NCBI GenBank assembly: GCA_951406725.2
Contig: OX597817.1
Coordinates: 80,600,001 to 80,664,000, forward strand
Length of the DNA stretch: 64,000 nt
Direction of reading: 5' to 3'
From: Octopus vulgaris
Lineage: Eukaryota
The notes below the pieces were generated by a model. That model saw only the letters and a list, made by a program, of their open reading frames with translations. It did not search any database and was not told where the DNA came from. The translations under genes and the position numbers were made by a program. Of this stretch, positions 15,454-49,909 are shown piece after piece (the stretch's first letter is position 1; every line of letters begins with the position of its first letter).

Positions 15454-15512
<59 letters not shown>

Positions 15513-15675
15513 GTTATCGCCATACTAATATGGCATTCTTATAAAAATAAGAAAAAAGCTGTCCGCTTATTAGCTCCATGAGGCCATCGCCTTAAGTTAG
15601 CTATTTGATACACAAACTGTATCCATATAACCTTCGAACAAGGGAGGTCAGTCGCTCCACACTACTTGACCGGCA

Positions 15676-15717
15676 GCTACAGACGCGTTTCGGGGTATTG
15701 CCCCTTTTCAATGCAGC
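15676..15717 (-). ncRNA. Minimal type-I hammerhead ribozyme, U3-A8 core variant (inverted copy)
   Basis: Minus strand: GCTGCA-TTGAAAA-GGGG(CAATA)CCCC-GAAAC-GC-GTC-TGTAGC. Confidence 0.75.
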
Positions 15718-16195
15718 GTAGCCAGCCAGTAGGTGTCGCTTCCGACAATCTCTGTTCGATGGTTTTATTTACCTAGTTTCGGTGGAATACATCCACTTGT
15801 TTTCAATAATAGAAATATTAAAATAACTAAGTCTCTCTAAAAGAGAACAGCAATACCCCGAAACGCGTCTGTAGCTGCCGGTCAAGTAGTGTGGAGCGAC
15901 GGACCTCCCTTGTTCGAAGGTTATATGGATACAGTTTGTGTATCAAATAGCTAACTTAAGGCGATGGCCTCATGGAGCTAATAAGCGGACAGCTTTTTTC
16001 TTATTTTTATAAGAATGCCATATTAGTATGGCGATAACTATTATTTTCCGGGAACGCTGCCGCTGTTCTCTTTTAGAGAGACTTAGTTATTTTAATATTT
16101 CTATTATTGAAAACAAGTGGATGTATTCCACCGAAACTAGGTAAATAAAACCATCGAACAGAGATTGTCGGAAGCGACACCTACTGGCTGGCTAC

Positions 16196-16237
16196 GCTGC
16201 ATTGAAAAGGGGCAATACCCCGAAACGCGTCTGTAGC
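16196..16237 (+). ncRNA. Minimal type-I hammerhead ribozyme, U3-A8 core variant
   Basis: Stem I GCTGCA/TGTAGC, core TTGAAAA (16202-16208), stem II GGGG/CCCC, GAAA, palindromic stem III ACGCGT, GUC triplet (predicted cut after 16231). Confidence 0.75.
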
Positions 16238-16463
16238 TGCCGGTCAAGTAGTGTGGAGCGACTGACCTCCCTTGTTCGAAGGTTATATGGATACAGTTTG
16301 TGTATCAAATAGCTAACTTAAGGCGATGGCCTCATGGAGCTAATAAGCGGACAGCTTTTTTCTTATTTTTATAAGAATGCCATATTAGTATGGCGATAAC
16401 TATTATTTTCCGGGAACGCTGCCGTTGTTCTCTTTTAGAGAGACTTAGTTATTTTAATATTTC

Positions 16464-16525
<62 letters not shown>

Positions 16526-17449: not shown

Positions 17450-19250
17450 TAGCGAGGTGGTTTGTCAAAGTTGTTATTACGTCGGACAAAACAGCATGCT
17501 CTTTCTGTTCGCACCCCGAGCAAAATAATTAGTGGCATTTCGTCCGTCTTTACCTTCTGATTTCAAATTCCGCCGTGGTCAACATTTTCCTTCATTCATT
17601 CGGGACCGATAAAATAAGTACCAGTTGTACATTGGGGTCGATGAAATCGACAAACAGCTCCTACATATTTTCAGATCGTGTATTTTAGTTGAAATGATTA
17701 TTATTAATGTTATAAGGCGGCGTGCCGGAAGAATCGTTAGGATGCCGAACAAAATGTTTAGCAGTATTTATTCCAGCTTGGTACTCTGAGTTCAAATCCT
17801 ATTGAGGTGTGAACTTTACGGCTTATCCTTATGGCTTCGATAAACTAATGAGCCAGTCAAGCACTGGGTCCATGTCATCAACTACTCGCTTCCTCAACGT
17901 TGCAGACTTTGTATCCAAATCCCAAACATAATTCATATTGCTGTTGCAGTTAATTTTTCTCATCATTATTATTATCGTGAAGAAGGCGGCGAGCTGGCAG
18001 AAACGTTAGCACGCCGGCCTAAATGCTTTGCGGTATTTCGTCTGCCGTTACGTTCTGAGTTCAAACTCCGCCGAGGTCGACTTTGCCTTTCTTCCTTTCA
18101 GGGTCGATTAAATAAGTACCAGTTACGCACTGGGGTCGATATAATCGACTTAATCCGTTTGTCTGTCTTTGTTTGTCCTCTCTGTGTTTAGCCCATTGTG
18201 GGTAGTAAAGAAATAGGTATTTCGTCTGCCGTTAATTCTTAGTTCAAATTTCGCCGAAGTCGCCTCACCCTTCATCCTTTCGGGGTTGATAAATTAAATA
18301 CCAGTGAAACACTGGAGTCGATGTAAGGAACTAGTCCCCTCCTACCAAATTTCTGACCTTGTGCCTTTAATAGAAGGGATTGTTATTATTGTCAGTGTCC
18401 TCATTATAATCATAAAAAATTAAAGCATCAACAGTTCCAGGATTATCATCAAAACATTGACGATATTCTTCATCATCATCATCGTTGTCATCATCATCGT
18501 CGTCATCATTATCATCATCATCATCATTATCATCATTATTATCACTCTGAAAGTCATAATTTCGCATCACCACGACTATCGTCTCTATAGTGACTATCGT
18601 CTCTATATAGCCACTGCAGAGCGTCAAACGAAATGGCTTGCGGTATTTTTTCCAGTACTTTCCGCCTGGTTTCATACCCTGCTTATGTCAACTTTGCCTT
18701 TCATTCTTCCGAGGCCGGGAAAGAAGGGTCGATAAATAAAGTTCCAAATCTTGTGTGGCAGACTGGCGGAAACGTTTGAGCGTCGTAGGTGCATTGGGAT
18801 ATTTCATTCGGGTTTTTGTGAATTCAAATTCTGCCAGAACCTATTTGAATGAACACCATCACCTGACTGTTGGGTAACTTTAGCGGACTCCAATCTGCGG
18901 TAAACATTCCAACCAAGCTTCTAGTTGTAGAATATTTTCCTTTCACTGTCATTCTTGGAGGCCCGTTAAGATTCGTGAGTACTGAATTCTTTATACTGCA
19001 CAAACAATTTTGAAAGATCATTATCACTATCAACAGCATCAACGTCAGTTGTGAATGCCATCATTAATATTATGAATGAGGGAGGGCAGCGAGCTGATAG
19101 TATCCTCACCGCGCCCGGTAAAATGCTCAGCGGCATTTCGTCCGTCTTTACGATCTGAGTTAAAATTCCGCCGAGGCTGATTTTTGCTTTTCATCCTTTC
19201 GAGGGTAGGGGTCTATGAACTTGCTGGCCTTCTGCCAAAATTTGAATCCA
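17450..19250 (+). mobile_element. Cluster of head-to-tail SINE family A copies (best copy 17984-18385)
   Basis: Repeated GGCGAGCTGGCAGAA heads and GTTCAAA..GAGGTCGACTTTGCCTTTC cores at about 17450, 17715, 17984, 18610, 18755 and 19085, several separated by (ATT)/(ATC) tails. Confidence 0.8.
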
Positions 19251-28149: not shown

Positions 28150-28878
28150 AGGTTTTGGCACAAGGCTAGTAATTTTGTAAGAGGGGCAAACCGATTGCAT
28201 CGACCACAGCGCTCAAATGGTACTTATTTTATCAGCCCCGAAAAGATGTCACTCGATCTCGGCGGAATTTGAACTTAAAACACAGACGGACGAAATACCT
28301 ATTTCTTTACTACCCACAAGGGGCTAAACACAGAGGGGACAAACAAGGACAGACAAACAGATTAAGTCGTTTATATCGACCCCAGTGCGTAACTGGTACT
28401 TATCTAATCGACCTCGAAAGGAAGAAAGGCAAAGTCAACCTTAGCGGAATTTGAACTCAGAACGTAGCGGTAGACGAAATACCTATTTCTATTTCTTTAC
28501 TACCCCCAAGGGACTAAACACAGAGAGGACAAACAAGGACACACAAACGGATTAAATCGATTATATCGACCCCAGTGCGTAACTGGTCCTTAATTTATCG
28601 ACCCCGAAATGATGAAAGGCAAAGTCGACCTCGGCAGAATTTGAACTCAGAACGTAGCGGCAGACGAAATACCTATTTCTTTACTACGCACAAGGGGCTA
28701 AACACAGAGAGGACAAACAAGAACAGACAAAGGGAATTAAGTCGATTACATCGTAACTGGTACTTAATTTATCGACCCCAAAAAAATGAAAGGCAAAGTC
28801 GGAAATTGAACGTAACGGCAGTCGAAATACGGCTACGCATTTCGCCCGGCGTGCTAACGTTTCTGCCAGCTCGGCGCC
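28150..28878 (-). mobile_element. SINE family A with tandemly multiplied internal ~160-190-bp module
   Basis: CGAAATAC anchor recurs at 28291, 28475, 28665 and 28823; a single head at 28840-28878. Confidence 0.85.
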
Positions 28879-35797: not shown

Positions 35798-35849
<52 letters not shown>

Positions 35850-35986
35850 CAGAGATGTACTTGCATAGCAAGTGACCTGATCTGAGATCGTGCGCTGGAA
35901 CGAAAACAATTGCAGCGTGGAAGGTGTTTATAAGCCATTTAAGAAACACACAAAAACTGTTAGATTCACTTCAACATTTAATTTAA

Positions 35987-36037
35987 TTTGTCAAAATATT
36001 TTCGTCGCTTTGAGACTGCGACCTGTTCACTGACAAA
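35987..36037 (-). ncRNA. Minimal type-I hammerhead ribozyme, G3-C8 core variant, within a ~200-bp element (35849-36051)
   Basis: Minus strand: TTTGTCA-GTGAACA-G-GTCGC(AGTCTCAAA)GCGAC-GAA-AATATT-T-TGACAAA. 7-bp stem I, 5-bp stem II, palindromic stem III, UUU triplet. Confidence 0.65.
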
Positions 36038-36051
36038 ATTCCGTGCTGCAT

Positions 36052-38510
36052 CTCATTTTCCACGGCAAATGATTCGGAGAGCCTACCACCAAAGTTAACT
36101 CTAGCTTTCATATCTTGATGCAAAGCCCTGATCATGTTTACAAATTTTTCTGGGCAACCTCTTTTCCTTAGATTTAGCTATAGAGCATTTTGATTAACAG
36201 TATCGAATGCTATGCTCAAATCAACAAAGCAATGGTATAGAGCAAGATTCTGTTCAATGCATTTTTCTTGCAATTGTCTGACAGTAAAGATACAATCAGC
36301 TGTACCCCTGGAGGAACGAAAACCTCACTGACACTCAGACACTATATTTGGAACTATAAAGGTATTTAAACGTTCTAACAAAATGCGGGCAAGTACCTTT
36401 CCAACCACAGACAAAAGCGAAATCCTTCGAAAATGCAACACGGATCCTTTGGCCCCGATTTATACAAGGAAACTAAAATGGCATCAATCCAGTCTTGGGG
36501 CACTTTCTCAGTTTTCCGACAGTGACAAATTAATATATTTAAGAGTTCAAACATTTTGTCACCACCATATTTCAAGACAGATTCCATCAGATCCTGGAGA
36601 CTTATTGTTATTCAGCTTATTCACAGCTAAATAAATGTCATTTAGAGTTGGTTCAAATACCATCTATTCTATAACTGGAAGGTGTTCGATTTTTTTTTCT
36701 ATCGTCCTTATGTCAGCGGATGATGGTCCATTCAAAAGTGCAGAAAAATGTTCTACCCAGCGTTTATGAATAGGAGTGGTGTCAGTCAGAAGCAAACATC
36801 TATTTGCTGTTCTCACTGGAGCTACTGAAGAAGATTTTGGGCCATATACCTCGTTAACATGAGAGTACAAACCCTTGGCATCATTTGTATCAGCTGCTTC
36901 TTTAGCCCCTTTTGCTCTATCATTCCACCATTCTTGCTTAATTTTTCTTAGAGCAGTCTGCACTTTCCTTTTCAGCTTTCTGTAAGCTTCGTTTGAGTTG
37001 GAGTTCAAGGACTGAGAAAGAAGAGTTTTGTTTTTCTAAAAGTAGATCATGAATTTCTGCTGATCTATCTGAGAACCAGTCACTGGGCTCACATGATTTA
37101 AATCCACTGAGGAACGTGTTGCCTGAAATACTTTTGTTTTGAGATCTTCCCATAGATTGTTTGGGTCAAGATTGATACTTTCTGTAGCATCGTGGAAGTT
37201 CTGTAGCATCGTTTGCAAGTTGCTTGATAATTTAAAATTTGCAACATTTAACGTTTTGGGTACCTTAAGACCAGGCTGTCGATTTTTAGGCATTGTCGAA
37301 AAATCTATATTTCCACGCAATAGATGATGGTCAGTCCAGCTCTCTGTCCCTCTCATGACCCGAACGTTAGAAACGTCTTTCATACCACGTTTTCTGATCG
37401 GAATATAGTCTATGAGATGCCAGTGCTTAGATCTTGGGTGCATCCAGGGGGTTTTATATTTACTTTACTGCTTAATCAGAGTGTTGGTGACAACCGGATT
37501 ATTCTCAGTACAAAACGTCAAAAGAGCTACTCCATTTTTACATTTTTCAATCCTATGTCCACCTAAAACATGCCATGAAACATAGTCCTTTCCAATTCTT
37601 GCATTGAAATCTCCCAATATGATCAGCTTGTCAGAAATTGGTACTTTCCTCAAAAGTTGTGCTAGATCATCATAGAAATATCCTACAGTTTCATCAGAAT
37701 GGAACATTTTTGGAGCATGACTACTGACAGCGGTAAGAAACCTACCTTTTGTCAGTTTAATACGGCGTGACATGATCCGTTCAGATATACCACTTGGAAA
37801 CTCTGCAATGGAGAATACTAATCTATTCTTGAGAGCACACCCGAAACCAGATTCTCCACACTGACCCTTAGGTAGGCCTCCCCAAAATATAGTATATCCA
37901 TAAGTAGGTTCATTTACCTGACCCTCACCAGAGAGACAAGTTTCAGAGACTGCAACTATATCAAGGGAATATTTCTTAAACTCACATGCAATAAGTGCAG
38001 TACGCCTTTCTGGCCTCTTGTTGAAATTATCATCAAGAAGTGTGCGCACATTCCAACAACCAAAATTCAAAGGATGTTTATTTTTACTTTTTCTTGAAGA
38101 TTGACCACAGAATGACGACCGGGCCCAGCCTGTGATACACTGGGACACCTGCCGAGCCAGACGTGTTTCCCTGACGTTCCCAAGCCTTTTTTGCCATTTA
38201 CTGAGTCTGTTTGAAACATTTTACAGTAAGTTGAAAGTGCATTTTTAGGTTTCTGCCAACCAACCAATTCAATGATTTTAGTAAGATTTGGTGTACAGAA
38301 AGTACCTGTGCAGATAAATAATTTTCCGTGGGTGTAGCTTGCACTGCACTACCGCTACCTATTGGCCCAAGAAGACTTTCGCCTGTGTGACATAAAAGTT
38401 CACAAAATCACGAAGATCCAAGGCCTCAGGTTTTATTTCGGAGATTTCCCTCTCCTAGGTAGATTACTAACCAAAGTAAAAGAGCTTCTACCTGCCCATG
38501 GTAAACTATC
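36052..38510 (-). mobile_element. RTE-clade LINE, 5'-intact and 3'-truncated, decayed (APE endonuclease plus N-terminal RT)
   Basis: ORF 37465-38148 has CWNVRTLLD..RPERRTALIA..VSET..LGDFNARIG; then HPRSKHWHLIDY..TDH, VPQDWIDAILVSLYK, GFRSSRGTADCIF..FVDLSIAFD. RTE-like 5' UTR motif TACCTAGGAGAGGGAAATCTC. Multiple frameshifts and stops. Confidence 0.93.
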
Positions 38511-40851: not shown

Positions 40852-40991
40852 GTAGTATTATTATCATTATCATCATCATCATACAAAGAAAACATTCAAC
40901 ATAAAAATATTAATCTAAAATCAAATAAAGTATAAATTGAACAATAAAAATTTATATCATAATATAATGTATAAAAGTAAGTACTTGTACA

Positions 40992-41111
40992 TTGACTACG
41001 CGCGTTTCAGGGCTGAAATAGGACTATATAAAATCATATAAGAAACCATATCCAAGTTCATTAGAACGGAAAAGTTATTTTACTCTCAAAATCAGTCACT
41101 CCTCAGGTCAA
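40992..41111 (-). ncRNA. Type-I hammerhead ribozyme with canonical core and ~75-nt stem II insertion
   Basis: Minus strand: TTGAC-CTGAGGA-GTGACTGA..TCAGCCCT-GAAAC-GCGC-GTA-GTCAA. Palindromic stem III ACGCGCGT; stem II has two mismatches. Adjacent 30-bp inverted repeat at 41119-41148/41384-41413. Confidence 0.7.
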
Positions 41112-41419
41112 ATTCCTATTAACTTACCTCATAATATGATAAGGAATATTTAAAGACATACGTCTTTTATTAACTTTATACACTAACACGTATTTACATT
41201 TATTTACATTCTCCATAATGACTTAATCATGTTCACAATAATACTCCATTTGAATTTTTTTAATTCGTAACTGTTAATAATATTAATGCCTTTAACTTAG
41301 GGATTACATTACAGGCTTTGTTTCTTTATATATATTTTTATTCCTTATTATTTTTTTATTATTTTATTATCTTATTATTTTTGTATTCCTTATCATATTA
41401 TGAGGTAAGTTAAACTTTT

Positions 41420-42672
41420 AGTTTTAGGGTTTTCTGCAAGTGCTCCGCCCTTATTGCAGCCCCTATTTGTTCCACGTACTTCTCAAGAATTTACTCACTG
41501 TACTCAGGGCTCCGACAATTATTGGTACTACTACCACCTTTTTCCTCAACCACAACTGCATAACCTATCATATCTCTCGACTTTTCTTTCTTCCTCATCG
41601 CATACCTTATTGTCAGCTGGGCAAGCTTTATCTATGATCCAGCATAGTTTGCTTTCTTTCTCAATGAAGACTATGTCTAGCTTCCTATTCTCCACCTTAT
41701 GGTCGCACTGAATCATAAAATCTCATAGGGTCTTTGCATTGTCATTTTCGATGATGCCTTCGGGTTTGTGGTCGTACCAATTTTTTGCTCTGTTGAGTCC
41801 ATACTTGTTGCAAAGTGTCCAATGGACAAGCCTGGCTATATTGTCGTGGCGTCTCTTATATTCCTTCAGGGCTAGTGGCGTACATTGACTGGTAATATGC
41901 CATACAGTTTCACCGTTTTGTCCACAGATTCTGCACTTATCACTTTCTGCTGTGTTGTCTGTTCTGTATTTTATGTAGGTTGTTCTTAGTGCTTGCTCTT
42001 GAGCAGCACAGATTAGAGCCTCTTTTCCGGTTTTAAATCACTTTTTGTCATCTACAGCCATCTTTTTTCTCTGTCTGTCTTATCTTCACCATATCTGTGA
42101 AATTCTACATGCGTTCTTTGCTTTACCCACCTATTTTCAGTTTCATTCGTTTTCAGTTGCTTGTACAGTGCTGTATCTTTGCAATCTTTCATCCTACACA
42201 AGCCAAACCTTTTTACCACTAATAATAGTGGTTCTGTGGCTTGTTTTTACATACCATGCTATGTTGTTTTCTTCTGCTTTAATACTGTCTTCGCATCCAG
42301 TAATTCCTCTTCCCCCTTTTTTTTCTTGGTACATACAGTCTATCTGTGTCATTTTGGGGGTGGAGTATCCCATATCTAGTTATCAACTTACTTGTCTTTC
42401 TAAGCTGTGTAGTCCGTCTACTGTCCATATTTAAGGAGTGAAACCGTCCAGGTGTTAATAGCTTCAATCTTATTCTGACCGTTTAATTTCGACTTAAGGA
42501 TCAGTCTCAGTATGCGCAAGTACTCCACCTTAAATTTTTCTCTCATTTCTGTCTCTATCAATTTATCCATTTCCAATATCCCCAAGTACTTATGAACCGT
42601 CTCTTCTATCTGCCACATAACTTCCCCCGATGGTATCGCTAGCTCGTCCATACCTTTGATTTTCGCCTCTTT
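41420..42672 (-). mobile_element. R4/Dong-type RLE non-LTR retrotransposon 3' fragment (decayed)
   Basis: HKYLGILE..EYLRILRLILKSKLNGQNKIEAINTW; LHPQNDTDRLYVPRK; ICAAQEQALRT; CCHC knuckle CRICGQNGETVWHITSQC..RRHD; RLE NRKLDIV..IIDKACPAD. Confidence 0.9.
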
Positions 42673-49446: not shown

Positions 49447-49605
49447 CACAGAGAGAGAGAGAGAGAGACAAACGGACAGACAGACAGACAGACGGACAGA
49501 GAGAGAAAGATAAATAGAAATGGTAAGACAAGAGAATGAAAGAGACCTTGATATTATGTAATTAGGGGAAATTATCTGTAAATATATGTGACAATTATTC
49601 GGTAG

Positions 49606-49672
49606 CCATGATAAAATTCAGAGTTTCGGATGTTGAGGCGGAAACCCACGCCAGCATCTCTTCAGTTAATGG
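49606..49672 (-). ncRNA. HHR-like motif with canonical CUGAAGA core (partly decayed)
   Basis: Minus strand: CCATTAA-CTGAAGA-GATGCTG..CAACATC-C-GAAAC-TCTGA-ATT-TTATCATGG, within a ~230-bp element between microsatellites. Confidence 0.5.
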
Positions 49673-49909
49673 GCCATCGAAAAAAATGCTATCCACATAA
49701 AATGCTATCCACATATTATATTTACAAATATATATATATATATATATATATAAGTTCGTTAATTTAAATGTCGATCATATTAAGTGGCCAGCATGGGAAT
49801 AAAACCTTCAAAGGTAATAATTATTATTAAAAATAATAATTTAGGGTATCTATGGCTGCTATTTCCAGCGTGGCAGTATCTCTTAGATACCCTAAATTAT
49901 AATTAAATG

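What the first reader, a model, noticed from the sequence alone, without database searches (positions are those of the whole stretch)
35987..36037. G3-C8 hammerhead variant completing a C-G / U-A / G-C covariation series in one window
Seen: core GUGAACA, an extra G before a 5-bp stem II, then GAA, palindromic AAUAUU and a 7-bp stem I. With CUGAGGA (41.1 kb), CUGAAGA (49.7 kb) and UUGAAAA (16.2 kb), three Watson-Crick versions of the 3-8 pair occur. Inference: double changes that preserve the pair argue for selection on catalysis, and standard CUGANGA searches would miss these motifs. The UUU triplet predicts weak cleavage.
Basis: partly seen in the sequence, partly recalled or inferred. Interest (0 to 1): 0.8.

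Follow-up and report, generated by a model that had tools for sequence, protein, structure and literature searches.

The report
Retroelement hammerhead with reversed core pair
This is the end piece of a jumping gene with thousands of copies, and it carries a hammerhead RNA motif whose two paired core letters read G-C instead of the usual C-G; related jumping genes have C-G or U-A at the same spot, so the pairing is likely kept by selection, but self-cutting is untested.

Summary
The motif is real: minus strand 36037-35987, core GUGAACA, inserted G, 5-bp stem II, palindromic stem III, 7-bp stem I (0 hits in 200 shuffles). It lies in a ~205-bp repeat with 2,952 strict matches; 93 of the first 100 listed have G3 plus C8, none C3-G8. 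The repeat is the terminal repeat plus ORF start ('tail') of a Penelope-like element; a full-layout copy has two hammerheads 4.26 kb apart around an RT-endonuclease frame. The four window motifs belong to unrelated repeats, so they are not covariation. Homologous covariation exists elsewhere: the sister family and two metagenome relatives have C3-G8, two have U3-A8. U17 is shared with the closest relatives and may permit G3, since G3-C17 would be a stronger trap. Many copies start at one site with an extra G, consistent with capped, uncut templates; ends are not enriched at the cut site. Minimal PLE hammerheads, natural U3-A8 and lab G3-C8 are published; natural G3-C8 was not in the papers I could read, but three key papers were unavailable. 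The scan noted G3-C8 hammerheads before on other DNA of this genome. New variant of a known kind; cleavage unshown.

The parts
35849..36053 (-). Short insertion of a Penelope-like element: from the inferred transcription start to the outer reverse-transcription start; about 205 bp, thousands of genomic copies
35987..36037 (-). Minimal type I hammerhead motif (stem I 7 bp, stem II 5 bp, palindromic 6-nt stem III, inserted G between 9 and 10.1)
36024..36030 (-). Core GUGAACA with G3 (36030) and C8 (36025)
   Evidence: G3+C8 in 93 of the 100 matches listed and 155 of 174 copies
35993..35994 (-). Predicted cleavage site after U17 (triplet UUU), 60 nt from the inferred start and 55 nt before the ATG
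   Evidence: position by hammerhead numbering; cleavage not shown
36053..36054 (-). Inferred transcription start (A at 36053) preceded by G; across the family an extra G here is consistent with a copied cap. In this copy the G could also be target DNA
35849..35938 (-). First 30 codons of the element's RT-endonuclease frame (ATG at 35938)
   Evidence: the same ATG opens the long frame in L227, L228, L198, L199
35849..35904 (-). 'Tail': 56 nt between the two 3' ends seen in the family (element positions about 143-150 and 197-203)
35798..35848 (.). (TA)n run at the 3' junction, as in many other copies

Best explanation
The motif is a minimal type I hammerhead fold with G3-C8 as the family state in the terminal repeat of a Penelope-like retroelement, and it likely acts as a slow self-cleaving ribozyme that needs a partner copy or the element's protein and is not required for most insertions. 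Shown: the layout is terminal repeat, hammerhead, ATG, RT plus GIY-YIG frame, terminal repeat, hammerhead; the window holds only the short 5' piece. Inferred steps: (1) transcription starts about 16 nt before stem I; (2) the element's RT starts inside the first codons at two sites 56 nt apart and copies back to the capped 5' end, giving the ~150 and ~205-bp inserts and head-to-head pairs; (3) in a read-through transcript of a full or tandem copy two motifs pair through AAUAUU, or the protein folds the RNA, and cutting after U17 follows at a low rate, removing a 60-nt capped leader 55 nt before the ATG; (4) G3-C8 arose on this family's branch from C3-G8 and was tolerated because the clade already had U17, which pairs only weakly with G3.
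For: Family state: 2,952 exact matches to a pattern open at 3, 7 and 8, control 0; 93 of the 100 listed are G3+C8; no other letter at 5% or more at 36021-36037 in four runs from four studies and four organism labels. Element: 28 of 30 loci found with the RT-EN DNA carry the repeat on the same strand about 1 kb after the stop; L228 has repeat-frame-repeat with hammerheads 4,261 nt apart; GIY-YIG E=1.6e-05. Two 3' ends and inverted pairs in 27 of 45 loci match the 'tail' mechanism in PMC11167929. Homologues at the same place before the ATG or after the stop: sister family C3-G8 (RT 61%, sister at 100/98 support), L290 C3-G8, L291 U3-A8, L294 C3-G8, L292 U3-A8 (weak stems); 6 of 6 families Watson-Crick, all with G10.1-C11.1, the inserted G and a self-complementary stem III, and stems that change on both sides. 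C3G/G8C partly restores cleavage in a PLE hammerhead, which cuts only with protein and is dispensable for insertion in vitro (PMC11167929). Predicted 3-17 pairing 0.67 with U17, 0.98 with C17, 0 for C3-G8; PMC3884650 reports that G3-C8 is more active with G17 than C17 (data not shown there). Extra G: 39 of 46 non-C letters before the start, p=3e-20.
Against: No cleavage is shown. 5' ends are not enriched at the cut site: 3 of 79 segments, p=0.14. Inside the family no copy carries a compensatory change; 19 of 174 copies have lost G3 or C8, and only one of these (A3-U8) still has a Watson-Crick pair. Constraint across subfamilies is weak evidence: 0 of 42 core and stem positions differ against 10 of 152 outside the motif, p about 0.06, and the subfamilies were defined by loop II. 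The sister family and L291 have C at position 9, which suggests relaxed catalytic demands in this clade. G3 still pairs with U17 in the lowest-energy fold. Only six families were compared, and four metagenome loci in the tree showed no motif. No single copy with an unbroken full frame was seen.
Confidence: 0.68

Rival explanations
1. The motif descends from a hammerhead but no longer cleaves at a useful rate; the fold is kept for another job (binding or positioning the RT, promoter or 5'UTR function) or has simply hitch-hiked with a successful family.
For: Copies come from apparently capped, uncut RNA. Cleavage is dispensable for insertion in vitro (PMC11167929). C9 in two relatives. Naiads spread without canonical hammerheads (PMC8557442, passages). 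G3-G8 recurs in 7 of 174 copies.
Against: The 3-8 pair is a tertiary contact of the active fold (PMC3088659 section 8); it is Watson-Crick in 6 of 6 families although three different pairs occur, which a non-catalytic hairpin would not need. Going from C-G to G-C takes two transversions.
Confidence: 0.23
2. The motif cleaves efficiently and sets the ends of a small circular or monomeric RNA, as in retrozymes.
For: Retrozymes occur in this window (362-bp U3-A8 tandem). Tandem runs of the repeat exist (L025, L204).
Against: Copies stop 60 nt upstream of the cut site at one start, do not wrap round, and are not enriched at the cut. In the L025 array stem I is broken and the spacer is unrelated repeat DNA. 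The family has its own RT-EN frame.
Confidence: 0.06
3. The fixed 5' end with G comes from splicing of a very short first exon to the acceptor-like sequence just upstream, not from a copied cap; the hammerhead reading is unchanged but the promoter lies further up.
For: 463 exact copies continue upstream through a branch-point-like CTAAC, a pyrimidine run and CAG. Penelope and Chlamys have 5'UTR introns (PMC4209133, PMC8557442).
Against: No GT donor after GAG was found in the repeat. The G also appears one to three bases further up in 7 of 19 C-class copies (counted by eye). No joint to this acceptor among the listed joints of four runs (contigs, weak).
Confidence: 0.12
4. A chance look-alike or a decayed copy of a canonical C3-G8 motif.
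For: No Rfam hammerhead hit.
Against: 0 hits in 200 shuffles; G3-C8 is the family state with no C3-G8 copy among 100 listed or 174 held; homologous position in related elements.
Confidence: 0.01

Closest known systems
Minimal type I hammerheads in pseudo-LTRs of metazoan Penelope-like elements (Cervera and De la Pena 2014, PMC4209133; read: main text parts 1-2 of 4, supplement file 2 parts 1-2 of 3; file 1 not searchable)
   Same: Place in the terminal repeat, extra nucleotide between 9 and 10.1, G10.1-C11.1, short palindromic stem III, mostly solo or opposite-strand copies, a U3-A8 variant.
   Different: G3-C8 core; none of the 56 motifs in their Fig. S3 text starts GUGA. The inserted base is G, where their consensus has H.
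Poseidon element PAc of the green anole (Frangieh et al. 2024, PMC11167929; read: parts 1-2 of 4)
   Same: Hammerhead next to the ATG, two RT starts inside the frame that make the tail, AT-rich targets, uncut RNA as template; the C3G/G8C mutant partly cleaves.
   Different: There G3-C8 is a laboratory mutant of a C3-G8 motif and the ATG lies inside the ribozyme; here G3-C8 is natural, the ATG is 55 nt after the cut site and the tail is about 56 nt.
Natural hammerhead core variants (Perreault et al. 2011, PMC3088659; read: section 8 and passages)
   Same: Natural covariation of the 3-8 pair.
   Different: Only U3-A8 is named in that section; figure and supplements not seen.
Nematis and Neptune PLE clades (Craig et al. 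2021, PMC8557442; read: passages and supplement passages)
   Same: C-terminal GIY-YIG with a CX3CxxC linker; the short linker resembles the Nematis rows of Fig. S2.
   Different: The RT has a long insertion between motifs A and B (about 60 aa by eye) that the three Nematis rows lack; clade not settled.
Non-LTR retrozymes (PMC7229834, passages; bioRxiv 10.64898/2026.07.22.740005, part 1 of 5)
   Same: Type I hammerhead in a short high-copy repeat linked to PLEs.
   Different: This repeat is the end of an autonomous element and is mostly solo or inverted, not a tandem monomer.

Membership tests
Hammerhead ribozyme, minimal type I | Core U4 G5 A6, A9, G12 A13 A14, A15.1-U16.1, H17 | tested here: met
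Hammerhead ribozyme, minimal type I | Watson-Crick pair between 3 and 8 | tested here: met
   G3-C8 in the family; C-G and U-A in five related families
Hammerhead ribozyme, minimal type I | Literal CUGANGA consensus or an Rfam hammerhead model score | tested here: not met
   core is GUGAACA; no hammerhead hit at E<=10. Published natural U3-A8 motifs also depart from the literal string
Hammerhead ribozyme, minimal type I | Stems I and II with G10.1-C11.1; self-complementary stem III for a dimer | tested here: met
   stems change on both sides in relatives
Hammerhead ribozyme, minimal type I | Site-specific self-cleavage | not testable with these tools
   only contigs were available; copy ends are not enriched at the cut
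Penelope-like element, C-terminal EN | Single frame with RT and C-terminal GIY-YIG | tested here: met
   GIY-YIG E=1.6e-05; RT motifs read by eye, Pfam RVT_1 not hit; 183 relatives, two of the listed ones named RT-domain proteins
Penelope-like element, C-terminal EN | Pseudo-LTRs on both sides of the frame | tested here: met
   L228, L227
Penelope-like element, C-terminal EN | Tail extension and inverted 5' copies | tested here: met
   two 3' ends 56 nt apart; inverted pairs in 27 of 45 loci
Nematis clade | RT groups with reference Nematis RTs | not tested
   no reference Nematis sequence was in the tree; linker similarity only
Non-LTR retrozyme | Non-coding head-to-tail monomers with an intact hammerhead in each unit | tested here: not met
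   mostly solo or inverted copies tied to an autonomous frame

The most novel reading that the evidence does not exclude
One clade of Penelope-like elements has explored C-G, U-A and G-C at the catalytic 3-8 pair, and C at position 9, because an earlier U17 removed the 3-17 trap. The natural G3-C8 ribozyme is an active, protein-gated switch that cuts off the element's own 60-nt capped leader just before its start codon, sorting transcripts between template and message use. This would give the hammerheads of these elements a testable job and a natural case of a permissive change in an RNA enzyme.
Probability: 0.22. Interest if true: 0.72.

Novelty: new variant of a known kind. Interest (0 to 1): 0.46.

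Why it matters
The role of hammerheads in Penelope-like elements is open (PMC8557442, PMC11167929). A family that spread to thousands of copies with a core pair otherwise seen by me only as a partly active lab mutant, next to relatives with the other pairs, gives a ready set of natural sequences to test whether the 3-8 pair, U17 and C9 are tuned for slow cutting. It also shows that CUGANGA-type descriptors and Rfam undercount hammerheads in animal genomes. It is not a new ribozyme class or a new kind of element.

Tried and rejected
Whole-window Rfam and repeat scans were swamped by microsatellites. The first GIY-YIG search returned mostly other PLE families; the one overlap, L059, is a truncated insert. 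The PLE frame beside L123 belongs to another family that is cut at the junction and was not used. The 426-bp array in L025 is not a retrozyme: stem I is broken. The structure string was out of register and the alignment misplaces three rows; those counts are discarded and replaced by the parse. No RNA holder on record was listed; runs guessed to be RNA are contigs and show neither ends, strand nor level. G3-G8 copies as relics of an intermediate: slightly more diverged, p=0.06, 7 copies, not shown. The open frame that runs through the motif itself was dismissed; the real frame starts at 35938. No motif was found in L289, L293, L295, L296, L297; several of these contigs end near the frame. Not held and so not read: Lunse et al. 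(PMC5785218), Przybilski and Hammann 2007 (PMC1986816), Hammann et al. 2012 (PMC3334697); these and their supplements may already report natural G3-C8.

Full report
Observation. The minus strand at 36037-35987 reads as a minimal type I hammerhead: 7-bp stem I, GUGAACA, an inserted G, 5-bp stem II closed by G10.1-C11.1, GAA, AAUAUU and U17. A descriptor free at positions 3 and 8 found 3 motifs in the window and 0 in 200 dinucleotide shuffles (set after seeing the motif). The 55-nt stretch folds at -13.7 kcal/mol, z -2.59. Rfam has no hammerhead hit there at E<=10. The host is a 2.8-Gb microsatellite-rich animal genome; a protein labelled Octopus vulgaris matches it at 100%. The copy sits at a (TA)n run next to a decayed LINE with an endonuclease domain.

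Family state. A pattern open at 3, 7, 8 and loop II has 2,952 exact matches, control 0; of the 100 listed, 93 are G3+C8, 3 changed at 3, 4 changed at 8, none C3-G8 (counted by eye). Among 174 distinct copies held, 155 are G3-C8, 7 G-G, 5 G-U, 3 A-C, 2 G-A, 1 U-C, 1 A-U. Four runs from four studies, labelled organisms A, B, D and E, show no other letter at 5% or more from 36021 to 36037. So G3-C8 is the state of the source elements and not decay of this copy.

What the repeat is. In 79 segments from position-ordered samples (three duplicate loci dropped) the 3' ends fall at element positions 142-150 (27) or 197-203 (46), and 27 of 45 loci hold head-to-head pairs. Three copies shared sequence upstream; that junction has 463 exact matches and leads through about 1 kb of microsatellite-rich UTR to a frame with RT motifs, a CX3CxxC linker and GIY-YIG. 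28 of 30 loci found with that coding DNA carry the repeat on the same strand about 1 kb after the stop; the other two have only inverted pieces. L228 (G000:C4:22955000-22963000) has repeat, frame and repeat, with the two hammerheads 4,261 nt apart; L227 is similar but 5'-clipped. The ATG at window 35938 opens this frame in L198, L199, L227 and L228. Both long copies have stops or shifts; L191 holds an unbroken 999 codons without the start. This is the layout and the tail described for the anole element, where RT starts at two sites inside the frame (PMC11167929). The window copy is therefore a short product: start of transcript to outer RT start.

5' ends. 43 of 79 segments reach the first 9 bases of the element; 3 of 79 begin within 2 bases of the predicted cut, against about 1.3 expected, p=0.14. 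Of 100 listed genome matches that include the start (792 in all), 35 continue into the native upstream sequence, 39 have G, 19 C, 6 A and 1 T before AGATG (counted by eye); 39 of 46 non-C letters are G, p=3e-20. I read this as a copied cap at an initiator-like TCA(+1)GAT; that RTs can copy caps, and the initiator consensus, are recalled. A spliced micro-exon is the rival: the upstream sequence looks like a 3' splice site, but no matching donor was found. Either way most templates were not cut at the hammerhead, as in the anole study.

The covariation claim. The 16.2-kb motif (U3-A8) belongs to a young 362-bp tandem repeat, and the 41.1- and 49.7-kb motifs (C3-G8) to two other families whose window copies are damaged. 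They are separate families with different stems, loops and flanks, so the set in one window is a sample of what the genome holds. Other PLE loci here also carry C3-G8 and U3-A8 motifs. Homologous evidence came from relatives of the RT. A young sister family in the same genome (61% over 380 aa, 99% among copies) has the motif before its ATG with C3-G8, C9, inserted G and U17, seen 50 times in 30 loci. Of 14 metagenome loci, L290 has C3-G8/U17, L291 U3-A8/C9/U17, L294 C3-G8/C17, and L292 a weaker U3-A8/A17 found by eye. All six families keep a Watson-Crick 3-8 pair, G10.1-C11.1, the inserted G and a self-complementary stem III, while stem letters change on both sides. In the RT tree this family and the sister group at 100/98; L290 and L291 sit in an open fork; L294 is on a long branch (18 rows, five short loci left out, 6 of 120 listed proteins used). 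By parsimony G3-C8 is derived on this branch. Six families are few, and this is not a formal covariation test.

Constraint inside the family. Five loop-defined subfamilies differ at 0 of 42 core and stem positions and at 10 of 152 positions outside the motif, p about 0.06; the loop differences follow from the grouping. A stem I change A to G in 27 of 184 copies keeps a G-U pair. This is suggestive only.

Mechanism. Established: C3-G8 is a core pair and U3-A8 occurs in nature (PMC3088659 section 8; PMC4209133). Minimal PLE hammerheads do not cut as monomers and cut weakly as dimers. In a PLE hammerhead C3G and G8C each abolish cutting, the double change partly restores it, protein is needed, and insertion does not depend on it. 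G3-C8 was more active with G17 than with C17 in unpublished data quoted in PMC3884650, which fits a 3-17 trap. Computed here: G3 pairs with position 17 with probability 0.67 for U17 and 0.98 for C17, and the trap is worth 1.3 against 3.5 kcal/mol; C3-G8 has no such pair with U, C or A (secondary structure only). U17 is shared by the sister, L290 and L291, so it likely came first and eased the change to G3. The best reading is a slow, dimer- or protein-dependent ribozyme kept in the source lineage (0.68); a dead or repurposed fold is the main rival (0.23).

Novelty. The element type, the minimal hammerhead, the inserted base, natural U3-A8 and laboratory G3-C8 are in print. Natural G3-C8 was not found in paper searches, in section 8 of PMC3088659, in passages of PMC6155905 and PMC6765202, or among the 56 motifs of Fig. 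S3 of PMC4209133. Three papers most likely to mention it were not held, and figures are not visible to me, so the claim is limited. After my reading was fixed, the scan's notes showed eight reports of G3-C8 hammerheads on other DNA of this genome; they are unchecked and not used as support. Verdict: new variant of a known kind, interest 0.46.

Noticed in passing
L264:4637-4688 (G000:C17), and L291:2488-2539: The young sister family and one metagenome relative have C instead of A at core position 9, followed by the inserted G. The sister has open frames of about 1,310 codons and 99% identical copies, so it looks recently active.
   Followed up: partly
window 15507-16470: Very young 362-bp tandem repeat with a U3-A8 hammerhead and no inserted base; copies 99-100% identical, arrays of up to about ten units, with inverted 5' pieces like those of PLE insertions. 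Looks like a retrozyme.
   Followed up: partly
window 40981-41125 (minus): Hammerhead-like family with an 8-nt palindromic stem III, a loop II of about 70 nt and U at 11.1 in 11 of 12 rows.
   Followed up: partly
window 49600-49690 (minus): High-copy family (3,055 candidates) with C3-G8, a long imperfect stem II with a bulge beside G10.1-C11.1, a 9-nt stem III and U17.
   Followed up: partly
L073, L126, L202, L203, L204, L257: C8 is G in 7 of 174 copies from several loop subfamilies, about as often as C8 to U; possibly a minor source lineage or a relic intermediate.
   Followed up: partly
L228:1700-1721: A branch-point-like CTAAC, pyrimidine run and CAG lie right at the inferred transcription start, so one stretch may serve as splice acceptor and initiator.
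   Followed up: partly
L204:1741-3084: Run of eight short copies of the repeat (seven of about 146 bp, one cut by the locus end) spaced about 170-190 bp apart next to an inverted frame start.
   Followed up: no
L038, L040, L041, L044, L049, L055: A Neptune-like PLE family in the same genome carries a U3-A8 hammerhead with A17 after its GIY-YIG frame.
   Followed up: no
window 18032-18226 with 28289-28673: 195-bp inverted repeats at 92-93% about 10 kb apart.
   Followed up: no
window 36052-38220 (minus) and 41723-42037 (plus): Decayed LINE with an endonuclease domain directly upstream of the insertion, and a fragment of another non-LTR element at 41.7 kb.
   Followed up: no
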